DNA of 60,671 nucleotides, taken from assembly GCA_050945915.1 (NCBI GenBank), contig JBMNTV010000003.1, positions 1 to 60,671 on the forward strand, given 5' to 3'. The stretch comes from Christensenellales bacterium (lineage in GTDB: Bacteria > Bacillota > Clostridia > Christensenellales > CALWSW01). How positions within the stretch are numbered: the stretch's first letter is position 1; every line of letters begins with the position of its first letter. The translations under genes and the position numbers were made by a program. Shown piece by piece: positions 3,340-57,409 of this stretch. Under the pieces are notes generated by a model. The model saw only the letters and a list, made by a program, of their open reading frames with translations, made no database searches and was not told the DNA's origin.

Positions 3340-5700
3340 CTATTTGAGACTGACCACCGTCACCCCGGCCTCGCCCTCGCCGTACTGGCCCAGGCGGAAG
3401 TTCGAAACGTGCTTGTGCCGTTTCAGGAAGGATTGAATCCCTGCGCGCAGCGCTCCGGTCCCCTTGCCGTGGATGACGTAAACTTCTTTTAAGCCGGAAA
3501 GAAATGCGCTGTCAATATACCGGTCCACCTCGAGAATCGCCTCATCCACCGTCATGCCGCGGACGTCAATCTCCAATGAGGCGGCGGTGCTTTCCCGCTT
3601 AACAGAGGCGGTGACGCGGTTTTTGACCTTCTCCTTGCCGATCAGCCGCACATCCGCCAGCTTGACGGCCAACTTGAGAATCCCGGCCTGAACGGTGATT
3701 TCGCCCTTGGAATCGGGGGGTGTGAGCACCGTGGCGTCATTGTCGGTGGAAAGCACACGCACCACATCCCCCGGCTGGACGGACTTAGGGGCAGGCGCCG
3801 CAAAAAGGGCGCTCTTTTCATTCCGGGGGGCGGATTCGTCCTGTAACTTGCTTTCGGAAGCTCGAAGTTCGTCCCGCGCTTTTTGGATCGCCCGGCTGCG
3901 ATCGGCTTCGGCGGCAGCGTTCAGAGCCTTCAGCTCCCGGATGATCCGCTCGGATTCCGCCTTGGTTCGCTGCACGATGGCCCGGGCCTCTTCCTTAGCC
4001 TTTTTGATGGCCTTGTCTCGCTGCTCGGCGATGCGCTTTTTTTCCTTTTCGGTTTCGTCCCGCAAGCGGTAAAGCTCCGCCCGGGCTTCCTCCGCCAGTC
4101 GCCTCTCCTGTTCGGCGATGCGCCTTTGGCTTTCTGCGCCAGAAATGGCGTCTTCGAAGGAGATGTCCTTCACCGTCAGGTGCTTGTGGGCGCATTCGAT
4201 GATGTGTTCGGGCAGGCCGAGTTTTCTGGAAATCTTGAAGGCGTTGCTCTTGCCGGGTATGCCGATGAACAGCCGGTAAGTCGGCCGAAGGGTGGTCACG
4301 TCAAACTCGACGGAGGCGTTTTCCATCCCCTCCCGGGTTAAGGCGAAGGCCTTCAGCTCGCTGTAATGGGTGGTGGCCAGGGTGCGCGCCTTCCGGCTGT
4401 GAAGCTCTTCCAGGATGGACATCGCCAAAGCGGCGCCCTCCACGGGGTCGGTTCCGCTGCCCAGTTCGTCCACCAGCACAAGGCTGCCGCCCTCTGCTTC
4501 CTTCAGGAGGTCGACGACGTTCTTCATGTGGGACGAAAAGGTGGAAAGGTTCTGGGCGATGCTCTGCTCGTCGCCGATGTCCGCGAACACGTTGTTAAAT
4601 ACCGGCATTTCGGTTCCGTCCATCGCGGGAAGGAACATGCCGCTTTGGGTCATCAGCGCAAAAAGACCGACGGTCTTCAAGGTCACGGTTTTTCCGCCGG
4701 TATTCGGACCGGTGATGATTAGCGTAGTGAAGTCTTTGCCCAGCCAAAGGTCGATGGGCACCACAACGGCGGGGTCGATCAGCGGATGCCGGCCGCCCAC
4801 GATGCGCATAAAACCCTTTGTATTCAGATTCGGACAGACGGCCCGCATATCCCGCCCGAGCTTTGCCTTGGCGAAGATGACGTCGATCTCGGCGAGCAGT
4901 TCAAAAGACTCCAGCAACGCCGGCGCTTCCGGCGCGATGGCAGCCGTCAGTTCCGAAAGGATGCGCTGGATTTCCTCGGCTTCTTCGGAAAGCAGTTTCT
5001 TCAGCTCGTTGCCGATCTCGACCACCGCCATCGGCTCGATGAACAAAGTGGCGCCGGAGCCGGACTGGTCGTGCAGCAATCCGGGGATCGCCAAGCGGTG
5101 TTCCTGCTTGACGGGCAGGACGTATCTTCCGTTTCGGATGGTGATGATGCTCTCCTGCAGGCAGTTCCTGTACGCCGGGGAATGAATCATGGCGTTCAGC
5201 TTGTCCCGTACCCGGTCGTTGCAGGCGCGGATGGATCTTCTCAACGAGGCAAGTTTGGGGGAGGCGGCGTCCGCCATCTCATCCTCGGTCAGGATGCAGC
5301 GGAAGATTTCCTCCTCGATCCCCCGCGCGGTGTGCAGGGAGATGGCCATGTGATAAAGCCCCGTGGAGCGTTCCTCGTTGGTCAGTGAAGACTTGGCAAA
5401 GCGCATTGCGCGCAGCGCTTTGGCAACGGCCAGCAGTTCCCCCATGCCAAGGGCCAACGTGGCACCGGAACGCTGCAAAGCATCCCGTACGTCCGGAAAG
5501 CTGTCCACGGGGGAACGGCCCAGTCTGGTCAGCTCATCGTCCGCCTCCTGCGTCAGTTGCAAGAGGTTGGCGACATCCGCATGCCCGTTGGCGGGGCGAA
5601 GCATTTTCGCGCGCTCCTTCCCCATCTCCGAGGAAGCGAGCTCCGTCAGCTTTTCGATGATTTTGTCGTACTCAAGTATTTTTAAAACCCTGTCGGTCAT
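3340..5700 (-). CDS. mutS2: Endonuclease MutS2 (MutS domain V ATPase + C-terminal Smr)
   Basis: 786 aa. Motifs are Walker A GPNTGGKT, DELGSGTDP and TTHY, a long charged coiled coil, and a C-terminal Smr domain (VIHGKGTGALR). Confidence 0.95.
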   Translation of the reverse strand: MTDRVLKILEYDKIIEKLTELASSEMGKERAKMLRPANGHADVANLLQLTQEADDELTRLGRSPVDSFPDVRDALQRSGATLALGMGELLAVAKALRAMRFAKSSLTNEERSTGLYHMAISLHTARGIEEEIFRCILTEDEMADAASPKLASLRRSIRACNDRVRDKLNAMIHSPAYRNCLQESIITIRNGRYVLPVKQEHRLAIPGLLHDQSGSGATLFIEPMAVVEIGNELKKLLSEEAEEIQRILSELTAAIAPEAPALLESFELLAEIDVIFAKAKLGRDMRAVCPNLNTKGFMRIVGGRHPLIDPAVVVPIDLWLGKDFTTLIITGPNTGGKTVTLKTVGLFALMTQSGMFLPAMDGTEMPVFNNVFADIGDEQSIAQNLSTFSSHMKNVVDLLKEAEGGSLVLVDELGSGTDPVEGAALAMSILEELHSRKARTLATTHYSELKAFALTREGMENASVEFDVTTLRPTYRLFIGIPGKSNAFKISRKLGLPEHIIECAHKHLTVKDISFEDAISGAESQRRIAEQERRLAEEARAELYRLRDETEKEKKRIAEQRDKAIKKAKEEARAIVQRTKAESERIIRELKALNAAAEADRSRAIQKARDELRASESKLQDESAPRNEKSALFAAPAPKSVQPGDVVRVLSTDNDATVLTPPDSKGEITVQAGILKLAVKLADVRLIGKEKVKNRVTASVKRESTAASLEIDVRGMTVDEAILEVDRYIDSAFLSGLKEVYVIHGKGTGALRAGIQSFLKRHKHVSNFRLGQYGEGEAGVTVVSLK

Positions 5701-51899: not shown

Positions 51900-53270
51900 T
51901 TATTTGAACAATAGATTATTGCACCGCTTACAGCGGTCATTTTGGATGGGGTTCATCATGGCGCAAACGTTGCAGTAGATGATGCGGTCTTTGGATTTGT
52001 CGTATTTCTCGTATGTGCCGAATCTTGGATGATACCGCACCCTGTCGCCAACGGAGAGATAGTCGTACATATGCCGCCTGCTGTCCCTTTCTACGATGGT
52101 TTTTTTCCTGCCCGCGTCGGTGTTGATGACCGTGGTGTATTCCGTATAGGTACTGTAACTGTCGTCGCTCGAATGATCGATTTTCTCCTTGCTGTATTTG
52201 TGGACGACCACCCCCTCCCACATGGGCTGCCTGGTCCTTCGCAAAGCCAGCAGATTCACGACCAGCATGATAAGGGCAATGCCAACGCCGATGATGAGGG
52301 ATTCTCCAAACGGGAAATCGTCCATCAGCAGACCGGCGACGGGAAAGCCTATCAGCGGCACGAAAACCAGCATCCACATACAGCCGATGGCGAGTTTTTT
52401 GTTTTTCTGCGCGGCGGCCAGGATTTCCGGCGAATGACACCTGTCGGAAAAGCCGACCAGCCCTGCCCTGGCCTGTGGAGACTCCGCATGGACTTGCTGT
52501 ATCGGCTTTTGCACTGCCTGATTCACTGCCTGATCCACCGCCTTGCCGCGGCCGATGCAAAATACGGCGCCCTCCGGCAGCTTTTCGCCGCAGGCCGTAC
52601 ACACGTCGGGAACGCTTGCCTGCATTTTCGCGCCGCAGCCCGAACAAAAAGTCGCGCCCTCTGGCAGCTTGTTTCCGCAGTTATGACAGAACATATCCGT
52701 ATCACTCCTGGTTTCGAATGGTTGAGACGGGGCGGGCTTCCTCACCACGGTTTTCGTCTTGCTCCTGCCTCTGTTCGTGCGTATAACAATTAGCAGCAAA
52801 ATAACGCATCCGACGGGGGCGAGGAGGTGATAGAGGATCGCCCTCTCTCCCATTTCGTCAAAATCGCACAGCGCTGACGGTTTGTTGATCTGGGGGAAAA
52901 TGGGAAGGTAGCGGATGCGCTCAGAGCGTGTTTCGCCCTCTTTCAGGCTCGGCCACGCCTCGTCACTTTGATAGATCACATAGCCCCGGTATTCCCTGCC
53001 GTTTACCAGAAACCAATAGCCCTTGGAAACGGTGCGGGAGCGATTTGGCTCCGCGTTGGTATCATCCAGCCGCGAGTGATAGCTGTCCACCGTGCCTATG
53101 ACGGACTCGCCCCATATCGCCAGCACCAGCGTGGAGAGGCTCACATACATGGCATACAGCAGCACGGCATAGATCATGATTTGAATGAGCAGGGGAGTGT
53201 TTCTGGGTTTTTTCATCTTTTTCTTCGCCGTGGCGCCCCCCTTTGTTCCATCCGCGTTTTCATTTCCCAA
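51900..53270 (-). CDS. Membrane protein with two DUF3592-like modules and three zinc ribbons
   Basis: 456 aa. The first module is TM, a beta region (RIRYLPIFP) and TM. Tandem zinc ribbons follow (FCHNCGNKLPEGATFCSGCG and VCTACGEKLPEGAVFCIGRG). The second module is two TM and a beta region (GDRVRYHP), with a terminal ribbon (YCNVCAMMNPIQNDRCKRCN). The start codon is uncertain (TTG 53270 has no SD). Confidence 0.7.
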   Translation of the reverse strand: MGNENADGTKGGATAKKKMKKPRNTPLLIQIMIYAVLLYAMYVSLSTLVLAIWGESVIGTVDSYHSRLDDTNAEPNRSRTVSKGYWFLVNGREYRGYVIYQSDEAWPSLKEGETRSERIRYLPIFPQINKPSALCDFDEMGERAILYHLLAPVGCVILLLIVIRTNRGRSKTKTVVRKPAPSQPFETRSDTDMFCHNCGNKLPEGATFCSGCGAKMQASVPDVCTACGEKLPEGAVFCIGRGKAVDQAVNQAVQKPIQQVHAESPQARAGLVGFSDRCHSPEILAAAQKNKKLAIGCMWMLVFVPLIGFPVAGLLMDDFPFGESLIIGVGIALIMLVVNLLALRRTRQPMWEGVVVHKYSKEKIDHSSDDSYSTYTEYTTVINTDAGRKKTIVERDSRRHMYDYLSVGDRVRYHPRFGTYEKYDKSKDRIIYCNVCAMMNPIQNDRCKRCNNLLFK

Positions 53271-53339: not shown

Positions 53340-54128
53340 CTATGGTTTCTTTCCCTCCCTTTCCCGTCGCAGCACTATGGCTATGCCCAGAAGAATTACT
53401 ATGACATACAGCAACGGATAAACGACGGTTTTGATGACGTCGGGATATGTCAGAGCGCGGAAGGGTAGCACGGCCAGTCTTACGGCTGAAAACCATACGG
53501 CGTAAAGAAGAAAAATTGCCCCCTGCTGCAAGCTCAGACGCCTGACCAGCCAAAACACCAACGGCAGGCCCAACGCAGCCCCGACCATCTCGTAGAGCTG
53601 CGTGGGATGAACGGCGCGGGATGCAAAGAGGAAGGGCATCCATTCGCTCAGCGCGTGCTGATAGCCGACCTTGGACGGAAACTCCACGCCCAGCGGGCCA
53701 AAGGTAGCCCGTCCTGCGCAGCAGCCGTTCAGGAAGCAGCCCACCCGGGCCAGACAGAGAGCAACACCGCCGGGAACTGTCATGGCGTCCAGACAGACCC
53801 ACGGGGATCGCCCCCATTGCCGTGCAGCGATGATCAGCGCCATCCCGGCGCCCAACACGCCTCCGTAAAAGGACAGTCCGGCCAAGCGTAGGCTGTACCA
53901 TTTCAGCTCACTTGAATAGTTGCCCGGATTGGCGGCCATGTTCCACAGCCGCGCGCCGATGAGAAAGGCGGCGGCCATGATCAGCAGCAGAGCCATGGAT
54001 TGCCCCCGCCCCAGCCCCGCCCGCCGGAGAGCGGGCAGAGCCAGTGCGCAGCCGGTTATCGCGGCCAGCAAGGCGCAAAGGTTATAGGCCGGAATCTGCC
54101 AGCCCCATATTTCAACAAGCGGGCACAT
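53340..54128 (-). CDS. lgt: Lgt-family (prolipoprotein diacylglyceryl transferase-like) membrane protein with a non-canonical active-site motif
   Basis: 262 aa. Lgt hallmarks are GLSFYGGVLG and HPTQLYE. The motif usually read as GR-x-GNF-x-N-x-E is ARVGCFLNGCC (53718-53747). Its ATG overlaps the upstream stop (TAATG). Confidence 0.8.
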   Translation of the reverse strand: MCPLVEIWGWQIPAYNLCALLAAITGCALALPALRRAGLGRGQSMALLLIMAAAFLIGARLWNMAANPGNYSSELKWYSLRLAGLSFYGGVLGAGMALIIAARQWGRSPWVCLDAMTVPGGVALCLARVGCFLNGCCAGRATFGPLGVEFPSKVGYQHALSEWMPFLFASRAVHPTQLYEMVGAALGLPLVFWLVRRLSLQQGAIFLLYAVWFSAVRLAVLPFRALTYPDVIKTVVYPLLYVIVILLGIAIVLRREREGKKP

Positions 54129-55288
54129 TATGGCGCAAGTGGCTTGGAGCCGTCCAGTTTCACCATAAAGTAGAAGTCGCTCTCCGGGAAGAAGGCGGTC
54201 ATCTTAAACTCGCCGGAGAGGACAACGCCGTCCTTATCCCCATTATATCTGGCAAGCAGTTCTCCCTTTGCGCTGGCATCTAGTTCAGCGCCGCTCATAT
54301 CAAAATTCAGTTTACCGGAAGTCGGGTCATAGACCACATTGCCTATGCTGTCGTCAAGAGTCAAAGTACCGGCATTTTCCTCAGTCTTACTGATAGTAAA
54401 AGGAGATGGGTTGGCTACGCCGATCTGTTCCTCTAACCCCAGTAGAGCGCCGGCTATATCGCAGCCAGCATATTCTTCATTGAGTCCATCAAGAACCGGG
54501 TCTCCGCTATCCTCCGATGAAGCGGGCTTCTCCAGTTCCGCACGGAGTGCATCGGAAATGAACACGCTGGTGATGGTCATGGTTCCATTCTCACAGCTGC
54601 CCACCAGCTCATCAAATGTAGGCGCGCCGCCAATCGTTACCTCCGTCACCGGCGCGGAGAGCTTGAAGCCCAATGTCAGCTTCGGCTCGTCGTGATCGGG
54701 GTCGTCGCCGGGTTTGAACAGCTGCAACTCCCTGGGGCAACCGGCCAGAATATAGCCCAGCAGGGTAAACTGAACGGAGGCCCCGGCCGCGCCCCTCATC
54801 GTACCGCTCCAGTTCTCCCTCACCGCGTTTTCGGAAAGCGGAGCGAAGCGCATGGCGTAGCCGTCATACTGCGACTTCTCGCCCTCGGGGGTATCTTCCA
54901 CGATGTTGAAGGTGATGACCTGATTAAAGAATTTCCTGACCTCGTCCAGCGCCTTGAGATACTCGGCCTCGGCCTTGCGCTGCATATAGACGCTGACGGA
55001 CTGTATGACAGGGTAGAGACGCTCATAAAGCTGCGCCTTGTAAGCACCGACAAGGTTTTCGATTTCCGCTTTGGTCGCGTTGGGGATTCTGACCGAGCCC
55101 GCATTGATCTTATCCTTAAGATTCTCGATGACCTCGGCCATTTGCTCATCATTAAGGGTCCAGAATACGCGGGCATAGCGGTCGATTTCCGCTTCGATGG
55201 CGACCTTGGCGTCGTCGGGAGCGGGGTTGGCTTCGGCTATATCAATCAGTACTTGTCGCCAATCCTTCAGGCCGCGCGGGCCTTCCAT
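54128..55288 (-). CDS. Hypothetical 386-aa acidic soluble protein
   Basis: Long ORF on the same strand as the operon, with 22-nt and 1-nt overlaps with its neighbours. It has no signal peptide, TM segment or recognisable motif. Confidence 0.7.
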   Translation of the reverse strand: MEGPRGLKDWRQVLIDIAEANPAPDDAKVAIEAEIDRYARVFWTLNDEQMAEVIENLKDKINAGSVRIPNATKAEIENLVGAYKAQLYERLYPVIQSVSVYMQRKAEAEYLKALDEVRKFFNQVITFNIVEDTPEGEKSQYDGYAMRFAPLSENAVRENWSGTMRGAAGASVQFTLLGYILAGCPRELQLFKPGDDPDHDEPKLTLGFKLSAPVTEVTIGGAPTFDELVGSCENGTMTITSVFISDALRAELEKPASSEDSGDPVLDGLNEEYAGCDIAGALLGLEEQIGVANPSPFTISKTEENAGTLTLDDSIGNVVYDPTSGKLNFDMSGAELDASAKGELLARYNGDKDGVVLSGEFKMTAFFPESDFYFMVKLDGSKPLAP

Positions 55289-57222
55289 TTAAGATTCCGG
55301 TCCCTGCTGATGTATTGATCATTGAAATAGACATAAACCTCGCCGATCTTGTCCATCTTCATCGCCAAGCCCTGCTCAAACAAGGTGGTAATTGCATAGT
55401 CAAAGAGGAACAGCCCGCTGGCGGCAAGCCCCCACGCGGCAGATTCGGCATAGGAAAGAGCCAGCATGGCCGTGTCCTTATATAAGCCAAGGGTATCGTC
55501 TGTTTTTTTCGTACTGAACATCACCGCGCCGATCTTCACCACCGCCGCCACCTTGCCCAGCTTGTTCATCTTTTTGTAGGCCGACGAGGCCAGCGCGGTA
55601 TCAAAAGTCGGGCTGCCAAGGGACGCGATGTTTAGAATCGTACCCGTGAGGTCGGTGGCAAAGCCCACTTCACCGGCCGCTCCGGCCACGCCACCCAAAA
55701 ATCCGTTATATCCGGTGAGGATCCGCGCCGCGAGGTTAGCCGCTTCCTCTCCGTCCGCGCCACCGCCCGCCACATATTCGCGGAGCGTTTTCATGGCCTG
55801 CTGTTGGTCGATGCCGGTGATACCCGAATAAACATCGGTGATATAGGCGTTGCGCCTGCCCTCGTTCCTGACATAGAACGCGCCAAAGGTGGAGAGATGG
55901 TCGGTGTAGATGATCAGCTCGTCAGCTGCCGCGTCCACCTCGAACAGCACATCTTCCCATTCGCCGGTGGTTTCATTTTTGTACTTTGCGCCCACGCATT
56001 TTGCCGGGTCCTGCCCTTCCTCGCAGTAGGATGTGTCATAGGGGATGCGCAGGGTGATGAAATCCGAAAACTCAGTCATTTCACCCAGCTTGAAGTCATA
56101 GGCTTCGATCTTGTATCCTTCTTCCTTATTTTCTAATACCACAGTAAGGGCTATCACCGCAATCTCCGCGCTGGCAAGCCTCATCGATGTTACGACCATG
56201 CCCAGGACGCCTCCGCAAAGGACGCCGAATACATTGGCAGAAAGTCCGATGCCAAAGGTTTGCGCCGGGTTGTCGCTATAATCCAGCATTTCTCCCAGAA
56301 TGCTCCACCAAAACAGGTCAAAAATACCGCATGCGCCGAGCATCAGCGTATCCACAATCAGATGATAATCGGAAGTCTTTCGCCCTAACAACATAAAGCT
56401 GATGAACGCTCCCATAATCATTGCCATTCCAATATACAGAATTCTGGAACGCTTCGCTTTCATAGGCAGGTTGCGCATAATCACAAGCGCCACGATATAA
56501 GGTACGGCCCAATACCAACTCACCAGCCCCGTCAGATGTTCAAAAGCAGGGTTGATGACCTGATACATCAGTCCGGAATTGATGGTGATGATAAAAACAA
56601 AAAGACACAGCAGTATTAGTTGGTTTTTGATGCCACCGCGCGTCTTTTCTTTCCATGCTTTGATCTGCTCATTCTCCTCCCCCACCGGCAACATCCAAAT
56701 GAAGGCCATACCGATTACAAGGCAAAGCATCGAAAGGCTGAGCCCGATAAACGGTGAGCAGTTCATGGCAACCACGTTGACTGCAATCATCAACAGGTTG
56801 GAATAAATCAGAACATCTGCGCAGGACTTCATTCGCTCGTTCTTGGGTGTAAAGGCTCTGAGAAAAAATCCCCATGCTGCCACCGCGCAGCCGCTAAAGT
56901 ATGCGCTGATCATCAATCCGCCCAACCATAGAGAGGATGGCGAAAAAAAGAAAGGGACGGTGGCAGCAAGGGATATGCTCATGCCGCTGAGCATGATGCT
57001 TTTGGCTGCCGCCCGGGACCTGACGAACAGACCGCAGGTAAGAAGGCCCATGAAATGTGCAATCATGGCAGTCAATATGTAAGCAGAGACATTTGCCCCA
57101 TGCATTTCAAGCAGGCCATACAGCACCTGTCCCTCAAACAGAAAAGAGAGCAGATACGCAAAGGAAAATGAAAATGCCGCAACAGAAAGCCTGCGGGCAT
57201 TGAAAGTCTTCAATCTGTTCAT
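55267..57222 (-). CDS. 12-TM MFS-like membrane domain fused to a ~290-aa C-terminal domain of unknown function
   Basis: 651 aa with an AGAGGG SD. By my count it has twelve hydrophobic helices split 6+6 by a central charged loop. Next comes a beta-rich region (IIYTDHLSTFGAFYV), then a Gly/Ala-rich amphipathic part (GFLGGVAGAAGEVGF, AWGLAASGLFLF). Confidence 0.7.
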   Translation of the reverse strand: MNRLKTFNARRLSVAAFSFSFAYLLSFLFEGQVLYGLLEMHGANVSAYILTAMIAHFMGLLTCGLFVRSRAAAKSIMLSGMSISLAATVPFFFSPSSLWLGGLMISAYFSGCAVAAWGFFLRAFTPKNERMKSCADVLIYSNLLMIAVNVVAMNCSPFIGLSLSMLCLVIGMAFIWMLPVGEENEQIKAWKEKTRGGIKNQLILLCLFVFIITINSGLMYQVINPAFEHLTGLVSWYWAVPYIVALVIMRNLPMKAKRSRILYIGMAMIMGAFISFMLLGRKTSDYHLIVDTLMLGACGIFDLFWWSILGEMLDYSDNPAQTFGIGLSANVFGVLCGGVLGMVVTSMRLASAEIAVIALTVVLENKEEGYKIEAYDFKLGEMTEFSDFITLRIPYDTSYCEEGQDPAKCVGAKYKNETTGEWEDVLFEVDAAADELIIYTDHLSTFGAFYVRNEGRRNAYITDVYSGITGIDQQQAMKTLREYVAGGGADGEEAANLAARILTGYNGFLGGVAGAAGEVGFATDLTGTILNIASLGSPTFDTALASSAYKKMNKLGKVAAVVKIGAVMFSTKKTDDTLGLYKDTAMLALSYAESAAWGLAASGLFLFDYAITTLFEQGLAMKMDKIGEVYVYFNDQYISRDRNLKWKARAA

Positions 57223-57409
57223 TTTGTACCCTCTAGCTCAGCAAAGATGCCGTCTATAATTATGCATTTGCAAAAGCCATTCGTCAACTTTTAAACCTCG
57301 TTGACTTTGGCAATGAATAACGTCCCGGTACCAAGAGTAGGATGACCGACAAACCGGGACGGAGCGGAATGATTCATATCAAGCGTATGGGCGCGGCTTT
57401 TGGACGATT

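What the first reader, a model, noticed from the sequence alone, without database searches (positions are those of the whole stretch)
53340..54128. Lgt-family transferase with Cys substitutions in the canonical GNFxNxE motif
The 262-aa protein has Lgt hallmarks (GLSFYGGVLG, HPTQLYE, polytopic topology). E. coli Lgt and other Lgt sequences I recall carry G-R-x-G-N-F-x-N-x-E at the conserved motif. Here it reads A-R-V-G-C-F-L-N-G-C-C (53718-53747). Residues aligned by eye to E. coli N146 and E151, which I recall as functionally important, are both Cys, with a third Cys adjacent. The gene is also translationally coupled (TAATG) to unknown accessory genes rather than sitting in a housekeeping context. 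This suggests a diverged Lgt paralogue that may use a different acceptor or donor.
Basis: partly seen in the sequence, partly recalled or inferred. Interest (0 to 1): 0.65.

Follow-up and report, generated by a model that had tools for sequence, protein, structure and literature searches.

The report
Partner-linked Lgt-like membrane enzyme paralogue
This gene is a divergent extra copy of the bacterial lipoprotein-lipidating enzyme Lgt; its cysteine motif is common, but across three phyla it sits directly after a large surface protein with one invariant cysteine, hinting at a dedicated, unstudied modification pair.

Summary
The 262-aa protein (53340-54128, minus strand) is an Lgt-family, 7-TM protein. 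HMMER and MAFFT put Cys at E. coli N146 and E151, with a third Cys at L152. A canonical lgt (GNFFNQE) lies on another contig.

The Cys triad does not mark this gene as unusual.
- R-x-G-C-[FY]-L-N-G-C-C is invariant in all 84 Cys-type sequences aligned, from about 20 phyla.
- It is the only Lgt-family gene in seven genomes checked, once directly beside lsp.
- A 2025 preprint already notes the "CC" replacement.

What is distinctive is a long-branch clade of extra copies in Bacillota, Actinomycetota and Chloroflexota.
- It has also lost G27, G142, Y235 and E243, each intolerant to mutation in E. coli.
- In 18 of 19 loci it lies directly downstream of a 700-1000 aa membrane-anchored protein.
- That partner ends in a calycin-like beta-barrel whose only conserved Cys sits in a G-C-D motif.
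- None of 71 other Lgt loci has this partner.

Partners anchored by a zinc ribbon plus TM helix lack a lipobox, so the N-terminal lipobox is not the link.

My best reading, an inference, is a partner-dedicated lipid transferase or lipid-handling enzyme. In this window the partner gene is split by a polymorphic 2-bp indel and apparently fused to a polytopic membrane domain.

The parts
53340..54128 (-). Lgt-like paralogue, 262 aa. It has 7 TM helices and belongs to the partner-linked clade of Cys-type Lgt homologues that has lost E243.
   Evidence: PF01790 at 114.7 bits. TIGR00544 at 80.4 bits, below the 118.9 cut-off. AF2 model plus Foldseek match to 5AZB. Tree placement. dN/dS of 0.24 against the L008 orthologue.
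53718..53750 (-). Signature motif A127-R-V-G-C131-F-L-N-G-C136-C137, equivalent to E. coli G142-L152. C131 is N146, C136 is E151 and C137 is L152.
54128..55288 (-). 386-aa ORF. It is the 3' part of the conserved partner gene. Its stop overlaps the Lgt-like start (TAATG).
   Evidence: It aligns with residues from about 340 to the end of P0123 and of the L008 722-aa partner.
54131..54631 (-). C-terminal partner domain: a strand, a helix and an acidic linker, then G-C-D capping a helix, then an 8-stranded calycin-like beta-barrel.
   Evidence: Alignments A2 and A3. AF2 pLDDT 88. Weak Foldseek hits to lipocalin, avidin and CpeS barrels. 328 clusters in 1.84 billion representatives.
54458..54466 (-). 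G275-C276-D277 codons, holding the invariant Cys of the partner domain.
   Evidence: The Cys is invariant in A3. GC[DENST] occurs in 128 of the 146 representatives that cover the column, and is usually the only Cys in the domain.
55273..55278 (.). CGCGCG run. The window carries a 2-bp-longer allele that splits the partner gene into the 651-aa and 386-aa ORFs.
   Evidence: Frame analysis against L008. A variant with 2 letters left out at 55274 is present in runs X1 and X3.
55267..56135 (-). 5' part of the partner gene (Ig-like and helical region), read in frame with the upstream membrane domain inside the 651-aa ORF.
   Evidence: blastn against L008 and similarity to P0123 residues from about 75 onward.
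56136..57222 (-). Polytopic (about 12-TM, MFS-like) membrane domain. In the L008 relative this is a separate gene. Here it replaces the partner's signal peptide and lipobox. The junction at about 56133-56138 is not verified by reads.
51900..53270 (-). Co-directional 456-aa membrane protein with tandem zinc ribbons. It recurs near the pair in L008. Its relation to the pair is unknown.
   Evidence: Pfam Zn_Ribbon_1 and DZR. Orthologue at L008 11413-12741.

Best explanation
The gene encodes a structurally intact Lgt-fold membrane protein from a divergent, sporadically distributed clade of extra copies found in Bacillota, Actinomycetota and Chloroflexota.

Shown:
- It is not the housekeeping Lgt; a canonical one is present elsewhere in the genome.
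- It keeps the lipid-phosphate and glycerol binding core: Y26, D129, R143, G154, E202, R239, R246 and HPTQLYE.
- It has lost G27, G142, Y235-OH and E243, and has changed TM7 (Q264P, S267Y).
- It is almost always encoded directly after, and translationally coupled to, a large membrane-anchored extracytoplasmic protein.
- The constant feature of that partner is a C-terminal calycin-like beta-barrel domain with one invariant Cys in a G-C-D motif.

Inferred: the protein works as a partner-dedicated lipid transferase. It binds a glycerophospholipid in its central cavity at the outer leaflet. It then transfers the lipid moiety to the partner rather than to general lipobox substrates. The most likely acceptor is the thiol of the invariant Cys in the C-terminal barrel. 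This would lipid-anchor or lipid-load that domain.

The Cys triad in the signature motif is inherited from the large 'CC-type' Lgt branch. It is not what makes this protein special.
For: - Lgt fold and family membership.
- Canonical lgt elsewhere in the genome.
- The clade sits on a long, well-supported branch (SH-aLRT 99, length 0.93) inside the Cys-type group.
- Clade-specific residue losses and gains.
- In E. coli, G27L/Q/W, G142A/I/V, Y235F/L/S and E243A/Q/R all fail to complement (PMC4728403).
- A partner-domain gene lies immediately upstream in 18 of 19 clade loci and in 0 of 71 other Lgt loci.
- In a 151-genome sample of the same order, the partner domain occurs in only 3 genomes at convincing E-values (plus one weak hit). 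In each of those three it directly abuts the Lgt-family hit.
- There are one or two partner copies per genome.
- The partner Cys is invariant and usually the only Cys in the domain. N-terminal anchors vary between lipobox, zinc ribbon plus TM, GYF plus TM, and signal peptide.
- A zinc-ribbon/TM partner without a lipobox is still followed by a window-clade Lgt-like gene 2 nt downstream.
- Both genes are under purifying selection (dN/dS about 0.24).
- The partner domain is a ligand-binding type of barrel.
Against: - No biochemical data exist for any member of the clade.
- The residues lost (Y235-OH, E243, G142) are needed for catalysis in E. coli Lgt, so the protein might not transfer anything.
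- The G-C-D Cys sits at a helix N-cap of a soluble domain, preceded by acidic residues. That is unlike a lipobox presented from within the membrane.
- About 12% of partner-domain representatives (18 of 146) lack the GC motif.
- In one actinobacterial genome the partner genes lie 246 kb from the Lgt-like gene. One GYF/transglutaminase-type partner has no LGT gene on its 6.7-kb contig.
- In this window the partner is frameshifted and apparently mis-anchored, so the pair may not work in this strain.
Confidence: 0.4

Rival explanations
1. It is a non-catalytic or lipid-binding-only Lgt derivative. On this reading the protein is a pseudoenzyme or membrane receptor that still binds a phospholipid. 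It docks or regulates the partner's C-terminal barrel, for example handing it a lipid ligand non-covalently or tethering the partner at the membrane.
For: - The clade has lost four positions whose mutation inactivates E. coli Lgt: G27, G142, Y235 and E243.
- It retains the binding arginines.
- The partner domain is a calycin-type barrel, a fold that usually binds small hydrophobic ligands non-covalently.
- The 1:1 gene pairing and translational coupling fit a stoichiometric complex.
Against: - It does not explain the near-invariance of a single partner Cys.
- Y26, D129, R143, R239, R246, G154, E202 and the Cys triad are all invariant in the window's clade of 10 and in all but one of the 19 (R143 is Lys once). 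That is more constraint than a docking role would need.
Confidence: 0.25
2. It is an ordinary second Lgt isozyme. On this reading it performs normal phosphatidylglycerol-to-lipobox diacylglyceryl transfer. It might be tuned to the neighbouring lipoprotein's N-terminal lipobox or to particular conditions, like the extra lgt copies known in Streptomyces, mycobacteria and B. cereus-group plasmids.
For: - CC-type Lgts are evidently functional housekeeping enzymes in many phyla.
- About half of the partners do carry an N-terminal lipobox.
- Multi-copy lgt, and plasmid lgt travelling with lipoprotein genes, are documented (10.1101/2025.03.27.645668).
Against: - Partners without any lipobox (zinc ribbon plus TM in L113 and L014) keep the pairing.
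- The clade has lost Y235, E243, G142 and G27, which both canonical and sole CC-type Lgts keep.
- The protein scores below the TIGR00544 cut-off.
- The conserved feature of the partner is its C-terminal domain, not its N-terminus.
Confidence: 0.2
3. In this particular genome the locus is a decaying accessory remnant. The Lgt-like ORF is still open but has no working partner and no current function.
For: - The partner is split by a 2-bp indel.
- Its signal peptide and lipobox are replaced by a polytopic domain that probably ends in the cytoplasm.
- Two blocks (1.2 kb and 3.7 kb) present in the closest relative L008 are missing here.
- The pair is absent from both same-genus genomes sampled.
Against: - The Lgt-like ORF keeps every residue that is invariant in its clade, and dN/dS is 0.24.
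- An in-frame allele of the partner coexists in the same metagenomes.
- The fusion junction could be an assembly error.
- This rival concerns only this strain, not what the gene family does.
Confidence: 0.1

Closest known systems
E. coli phosphatidylglycerol-prolipoprotein diacylglyceryl transferase Lgt (PDB 5AZB/5AZC)
   Same: - Same Pfam family and the same 7-TM fold (TM-score 0.72).
- Y26, D129, R143, G145, N149, G154, P197, E202, R239 and R246 are conserved.
- The HPxQLYE segment is conserved.
- The active-site side faces the outside of the membrane.
   Different: - Substitutions: N146C, E151C, L152C, G142A, Y235F, E243L, G27N, Q264P and S267Y.
- Shorter head domain.
- It is not the genome's housekeeping copy.
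- It is coupled to a specific partner gene.
- It scores below the TIGR00544 cut-off.
'CC-type' Lgt branch. The N146/E151 to CC replacement is noted in bioRxiv 10.1101/2025.03.27.645668. This branch is the sole Lgt in Latescibacterota, Armatimonadota, Zixibacteria, Lentisphaerota and Dethiobacter genomes here.
   Same: - Identical R-x-G-C-[FY]-L-N-G-C-C-x-G motif.
- The window's clade nests inside this branch in the tree.
   Different: - Most sole CC-type enzymes keep G27 and Y235, and nearly all keep an acidic residue at 243.
- They sit in housekeeping contexts, once directly beside lsp.
- They have no partner-domain gene next to them (0 of 65 loci).
Mycobacterium smegmatis second Lgt homologue MSMEG_5408
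   Same: It is an extra Lgt copy in a Terrabacteria genome. It carries N146C and further changes in essential residues, and is presumed to have low or no classical Lgt activity (cited).
   Different: I did not fetch it. Its clade membership and gene neighbourhood were not tested here. It has Y26H, whereas the window protein keeps Y26.
Plasmid-borne extra lgt copies of the B. cereus group, which travel with conjugation lipoprotein genes (10.1101/2025.03.27.645668)
   Same: An accessory lgt copy genetically linked to particular envelope protein genes.
   Different: The preprint links those copies to lipoprotein genes on the same plasmids. Whether they carry the canonical motif was not checked here. 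In the window's clade the linkage is to a C-terminal Cys-bearing barrel domain, and it persists when the partner has no lipobox.
Calycin barrels: lipocalins, avidins and the S-type phycobiliprotein lyase CpeS
   Same: The partner's C-terminal domain is predicted as an 8-stranded up-and-down barrel preceded by a helix. Its best fold matches, all weak, are to these families.
   Different: - There is no sequence similarity. Foldseek E-values are only 0.006-0.05, with TM about 0.5 when normalised to the target.
- None of these families is known to pair with an Lgt-like enzyme.

Membership tests
Lgt superfamily (Pfam PF01790) | Match to the family HMM above the gathering score | tested here: met
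   114.7 bits against a cut-off of 24.9, covering profile positions 4-238 of 240.
Lgt superfamily (Pfam PF01790) | Seven-TM Lgt fold with a small extracytoplasmic head between TM4 and TM5 | tested here: met
   AF2 pLDDT 89.6 with seven long helices. The only significant PDB fold match is 5AZB, with E 4e-10 and TM 0.72.
Lgt superfamily (Pfam PF01790) | Core substrate-binding residues Y26, D129, R143, G154, R239 and R246 | tested here: met
   Y15, D114, R128, G139, R217 and R224 are present.
Bona fide phosphatidylglycerol-prolipoprotein diacylglyceryl transferase (NCBIfam TIGR00544 equivalog) | Score above the curated equivalog cut-off | tested here: not met
   80.4 bits against a cut-off of 118.9. 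This genome's other copy scores 243.5 bits on PF01790.
Bona fide phosphatidylglycerol-prolipoprotein diacylglyceryl transferase | The 13-residue Lgt motif Y26 H103 G104 G142 R143 G145 N146 E151 G154 Y235 R239 E243 R246 (10.1101/2025.03.27.645668) | tested here: not met
   Seven of the 13 are identical. H103Y is a tolerated variant. G142A, N146C, E151C, Y235F and E243L differ.
Bona fide phosphatidylglycerol-prolipoprotein diacylglyceryl transferase | Catalyses diacylglyceryl transfer to lipobox Cys, or complements an lgt mutant | not testable with these tools
   This needs a complementation or in vitro assay.
CC-type Lgt branch | Cys at positions 146, 151 and 152 within R-x-G-C-[FY]-x-N-G-C-C | tested here: met
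CC-type Lgt branch, housekeeping members | Retains G27 and Y235 (most members) and an acidic residue at 243 (nearly all), and is the sole or housekeeping copy | tested here: not met
   The window has N16, F213 and L221 at those positions. A canonical lgt is also present.
Partner-linked, E243-lacking Lgt-like clade (defined here) | Falls inside the 19-row long-branch clade and carries F235, P264, Y267 and no acid at 243 | tested here: met
   SH-aLRT 99 for the 19-row clade. Residues.
Partner-linked, E243-lacking Lgt-like clade (defined here) | Immediately preceded by a gene ending in the G-C-D barrel domain | tested here: met
   The domain lies at 54131-54631 (163 bits), and its stop overlaps the Lgt-like start. 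In this window the partner is split and fused.

The most novel reading that the evidence does not exclude
An Lgt-derived enzyme family catalyses a second, unrecognised kind of bacterial protein lipidation. It would attach a glycerolipid moiety covalently to an internal Cys (the G-C-D motif) on a C-terminal calycin-like barrel of dedicated envelope proteins. The reaction would be independent of signal-peptide lipoboxes and would give proteins a C-terminal lipid anchor or a lipid-loaded domain.
Probability: 0.25. Interest if true: 0.8.

Novelty: new variant of a known kind. Interest (0 to 1): 0.55.

Why it matters
Lgt is treated as a single-function, near-universal enzyme and as an antibiotic target.

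Two points follow from this work. First, N146 and E151, called essential or catalytic on the basis of E. coli, are replaced by an invariant Cys triad in the only Lgt of many phyla. Mechanistic models built on E. coli do not cover a large part of bacterial diversity. This point is partly known already.

Second, within that branch a clade has shed further 'essential' residues and become genetically locked to one partner protein carrying a single invariant Cys on a barrel domain. That gives a concrete, easily testable candidate for a new substrate class or a new role of the Lgt fold. It also explains some of the roughly 1300 genomes reported to carry two lgt genes.

It also warns against annotating such genes as 'prolipoprotein diacylglyceryl transferase'.

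Tried and rejected
- **Dedicated Lgt for the neighbour's N-terminal lipobox.** Rejected as the general rule. Partners in L113 (P0126) and L014 have a zinc ribbon plus TM anchor and no lipobox, yet they keep the pairing.
- **C-terminal domain as a sorting tag shared by many cargo proteins, like sortase or exosortase systems.** Rejected. There are only one or two copies per genome.
- **Three enzyme Cys plus one partner Cys forming a shared metal site.** Set aside. The same triad occurs in partner-less sole Lgts.
- **H103Y as a sign of inactivity.** Rejected. This genome's canonical Lgt and most Lgts aligned have Tyr there. The literature accepts Y/W/F at this position.
- **Word-based homologue search with the partner C-domain.** It found only the query. 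The exhaustive profile search was needed.
- **Pfam, NCBIfam and PDB sequence searches of partner proteins.** They gave nothing above threshold, only sub-threshold M1, M48 and DUF2268 hits at an HExxH-18-E motif in one partner class.
- **Verifying the MFS-like::partner fusion junction.** Logan contigs of the best runs do not cover 56018-56290 at 98% likeness or better, so the junction could be neither confirmed nor refuted.
- **Cys-Cys distances in the AF2 model.** Model coordinates are not exposed to the Python box. Whether C131 pairs with C136 or C137 could not be measured.
- **Archaeal AliA/AliB.** They were read for context only and are not relevant homologues.

Full report
**Observation.** The ORF at 53340-54128 (minus strand) encodes 262 aa. 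It matches Pfam LGT over nearly the whole profile (114.7 bits against a cut-off of 24.9). It falls short of the NCBIfam lgt equivalog TIGR00544 (80.4 against 118.9 bits). An AlphaFold2 model built on 39 homologues is confident (pLDDT 89.6, pTM 0.86) and has seven long helices. Its only significant PDB fold match is E. coli Lgt 5AZB (E 4e-10, TM 0.72).

Two independent alignments give the same residue correspondence. One is phmmer against 5AZB. The other is a 92-sequence MAFFT alignment containing E. coli Lgt taken from NC_000913. Both give R128=R143, C131=N146, C136=E151, C137=L152 and G139=G154.

The motif lies at 53718-53750. The TAATG stop/start overlap with the upstream ORF is real. The genome (G000, 1.98 Mb, 104 contigs) has a second, canonical lgt on contig 7. 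It scores 243.5 bits, carries GRWGNFFNQEAYG, and sits between housekeeping genes.

**The Cys triad is not the unusual part.**
- All 120 nearest homologues (42-100% identity) carry R-x-G-C-[FY]-x-x-G-C-C.
- A scan of one genome per species found at least 600 motif matches, of which 573 encode relatives. They come from Omnitrophota, Eisenbacteria, Latescibacterota, Armatimonadota, Zixibacteria, Planctomycetota, Lentisphaerota, WOR-3, Synergistota, Actinomycetota, Chloroflexota, Bacillota and others.
- In the alignment, C146, C151 and C152 are invariant in all 84 Cys-type sequences.
- In seven genomes the Cys-type gene is the only PF01790 match, at 143-221 bits. Four of these are single-chromosome assemblies: Latescibacterota CP070763, OZ241920, Armatimonadetes OY969415 and Zixibacteria OY970208.
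- Six of the seven also have lsp. In the Armatimonadetes genome, lsp lies directly beside the Cys-type lgt.
- These enzymes must therefore be working Lgts.
[quoted passage not shown] The same source reports that M. smegmatis MSMEG_5408 has N146C (bioRxiv 10.1101/2025.03.27.645668).
- H103Y, which might look suspicious, is normal outside Proteobacteria.

**What does distinguish this gene.** A profile of the window's subfamily separates its own clade (at least 280 bits) sharply from all other Lgts (at most 174 bits).

In a maximum-likelihood tree the Cys-type sequences form one group against the N/E type. Inside that group, a 19-row clade from Bacillota, Actinomycetota and Chloroflexota sits on a long branch (length 0.93, SH-aLRT 99). 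The window's Clostridia clade of 10 rows is nested in it.

Relative to both canonical and sole Cys-type Lgts, this clade shows the following changes:
- It has lost G27.
- It has lost G142 (A, M or L instead).
- It has lost the Y235 hydroxyl (mostly F).
- It has lost the acidic residue at 243. This is L in all 10 rows of the window clade and varies in the other 9.
- It has gained P264 and an invariant Y267 on TM7.
- It keeps E202 strictly.

In E. coli, G27L/Q/W, G142A/I/V, Y235F/L/S and E243A/Q/R all fail to complement. Y235 hydrogen-bonds the C3 hydroxyl of the diacylglycerol at the reaction centre. TM3/TM7 form the proposed entry cleft for the peptide substrate (PMC4728403).

All five clade-bearing genomes checked also hold another Lgt-family gene.

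The clade is patchy. In 151 genomes of the same order, clade-level matches occur only in this genome and one other. Both sampled genomes of the same genus lack it. One homologue lies next to serine recombinases.

**The partner.** The gene immediately upstream of the Lgt-like gene encodes a 700-1000 aa protein without Pfam hits. It usually overlaps the Lgt-like gene by 1 nt or lies 0-2 nt away.

These proteins share a C-terminal domain of about 150 aa. With a profile of that domain:
- 18 of 19 clade loci have it directly upstream.
- None of 71 other Lgt loci does.
- The one exception (L017) has two such genes 246 kb away on the same contig.
- In the 151-genome sample the domain occurs at convincing E-values in only three genomes. 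Each time it abuts the Lgt-family hit.
- Genomes hold one or two copies.

Against 1.84 billion representative proteins the domain has 328 clusters at E of 1e-3 or better. It is nearly always at the extreme C-terminus.

Its only invariant Cys lies in a G-C-D motif. GC[DENST] is present in 128 of the 146 representatives covering that column, and it is usually the only Cys in the domain.

N-terminal anchors vary:
- a lipobox, in about half;
- a cytoplasmic zinc ribbon plus a TM helix;
- a GYF domain plus a TM helix;
- a plain signal sequence.

A zinc-ribbon/TM partner with no lipobox (P0126) is followed 2 nt later by a window-clade Lgt-like gene. The link is therefore to the C-terminal domain, not to an N-terminal lipobox.

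The middle parts of the partners also vary. One class has an HExxH-18-E metalloprotease-like motif (sub-threshold M1/M48 hits). Another has a transglutaminase core. The window's class has an Ig-like plus helical region.

AF2 models the C-domain confidently (pLDDT 88) as follows:
- a strand and a helix;
- a low-confidence acidic linker;
- G-C-D capping a helix;
- an eight-stranded up-and-down barrel.

The best fold matches, all weak, are lipocalin, avidin and CpeS-lyase barrels (E 0.006-0.05).

**State of the locus in this window.** The 651-aa and 386-aa ORFs are two pieces of one partner gene.

The break is a 2-bp difference in a CGCGCG run at 55273-55278. Removing one CG gives ...NLKWKARGLKDWRQVL..., which matches the L008 orthologue's ...GWNARSLKDWRQVL.... 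Contigs of two public bioreactor runs carry the 2-bp-shorter, in-frame allele at roughly 40-55% of local depth. The split is therefore polymorphic in the population.

Compared with L008 (83% identical Lgt-like protein), the window lacks two blocks:
- 1.2 kb, which fuses a polytopic MFS-like membrane domain in frame to the partner and removes the partner's signal peptide and lipobox;
- 3.7 kb downstream of the Lgt-like gene.

No contig at 98% likeness or better covers the fusion junction (56018-56290) in the best runs. The fusion may therefore be a real deletion or a mis-join.

The Lgt-like ORF itself keeps every residue invariant in its clade. Its dN/dS against L008 is 0.24, as for the partner.

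**Mechanism.**

Shown:
- an Lgt fold with an intact lipid-binding core;
- an altered reaction centre and altered TM7;
- an obligatory genetic pairing with an extracytoplasmic, membrane-anchored protein;
- the constant feature of that protein is a barrel with one invariant Cys.

Inferred (confidence about 0.4): the enzyme acts on its partner, most likely transferring a glycerolipid moiety to that Cys at the outer face of the membrane.

Rivals:
- a lipid-binding pseudoenzyme or docking subunit (0.25);
- an ordinary second Lgt isozyme (0.2), weakened by the lipobox-less partners and by the lost residues;
- for this strain only, a decaying remnant (0.1).

**Comparison and novelty.** The protein is a member of the Lgt superfamily and of its CC-type branch. 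It fails the tests for a bona fide lgt equivalog: the TIGR00544 cut-off, the 13-residue motif and housekeeping status.

Extra lgt copies and the CC replacement are known. I found no description of the partner-linked clade lacking E243, or of its Cys-bearing barrel partner, in the searched literature.

I rate it a new variant of a known kind, with interest about 0.55. The conserved enzyme-partner pair gives a directly testable lead to a possible new lipidation substrate.

Noticed in passing
window 55273-55278: A polymorphic 2-bp (CG) length difference in a CGCGCG run decides whether the partner gene is one ORF or two. The in-frame and frameshifted alleles coexist in two public bioreactor metagenomes. 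Whether this is slippage-type on/off variation or just strain heterogeneity is open.
   Followed up: partly
window 56018-56290 (junction about 56133-56138): An in-frame fusion joins an MFS-like polytopic domain to the partner protein. In the relative L008 these are separate genes, and the membrane protein ends in a LuxR-type HTH-like tail. The junction is not covered by any near-identical public contig. The membrane-domain part (56250-57300) attracts thousand-fold summed depth at 90% likeness, so many related copies exist in these communities.
   Followed up: partly
G000 contig C48:10755-11817: The window's genome carries two tandem signal peptidase II (lsp, PF01252) genes, at 134.9 and 84.6 bits.
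   Followed up: no
G003 (Armatimonadetes OY969415) 3965039-3966200: A Cys-type lgt and lsp are directly adjacent. This is good circumstantial evidence that the CC-type enzyme is the working housekeeping Lgt there.
   Followed up: partly
L003 5905-8001, L005 5759-7999, L011 3339-5456: One class of partner proteins carries HEFFH followed 18 residues later by Glu, a gluzincin-like zinc-protease motif. Only sub-threshold Pfam hits to Peptidase_M1, M48 and DUF2268 support it.
   Followed up: partly
P0213: A 1954-aa protein matches the partner barrel profile in 12 separate stretches. This is a tandem array of the domain, unlike the single C-terminal copy seen elsewhere.
   Followed up: no
L114 1793-3922 (P0195): This partner-domain protein has an N-terminal GYF_2 domain and a transglutaminase core, and no LGT gene on its 6.7-kb contig. 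Similar GYF-type N-termini recur among the representatives. The pairing may therefore be unlinked in some lineages.
   Followed up: partly
G005 (genome of L008), C1:575220-575948: The closest relative's genome has three Lgt-family genes: a canonical one (239 bits), the window's orthologue (107 bits), and a third Cys-type copy (143 bits) with GCFAGCC, N at D129, and Y235 and E243 retained.
   Followed up: no
L008 6896-7001 and G005:C1:55476-55999: The orthologous partner gene in the closest relative is also frameshifted, near its 3' end. That genome is a 2.3-Mb single-contig MAG, so a long-read homopolymer error is possible.
   Followed up: no
window 51900-53270; L008 8538-10967 and 11413-12741; L009 1301-2047; L014 about 5300-5700; L080 4122-5297: Membrane proteins with N-terminal or internal zinc ribbons recur just downstream of the Lgt-like gene in several unrelated loci. 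A DUF3592 protein lies just upstream of the partner in L003. Their relation to the pair is unknown.
   Followed up: no
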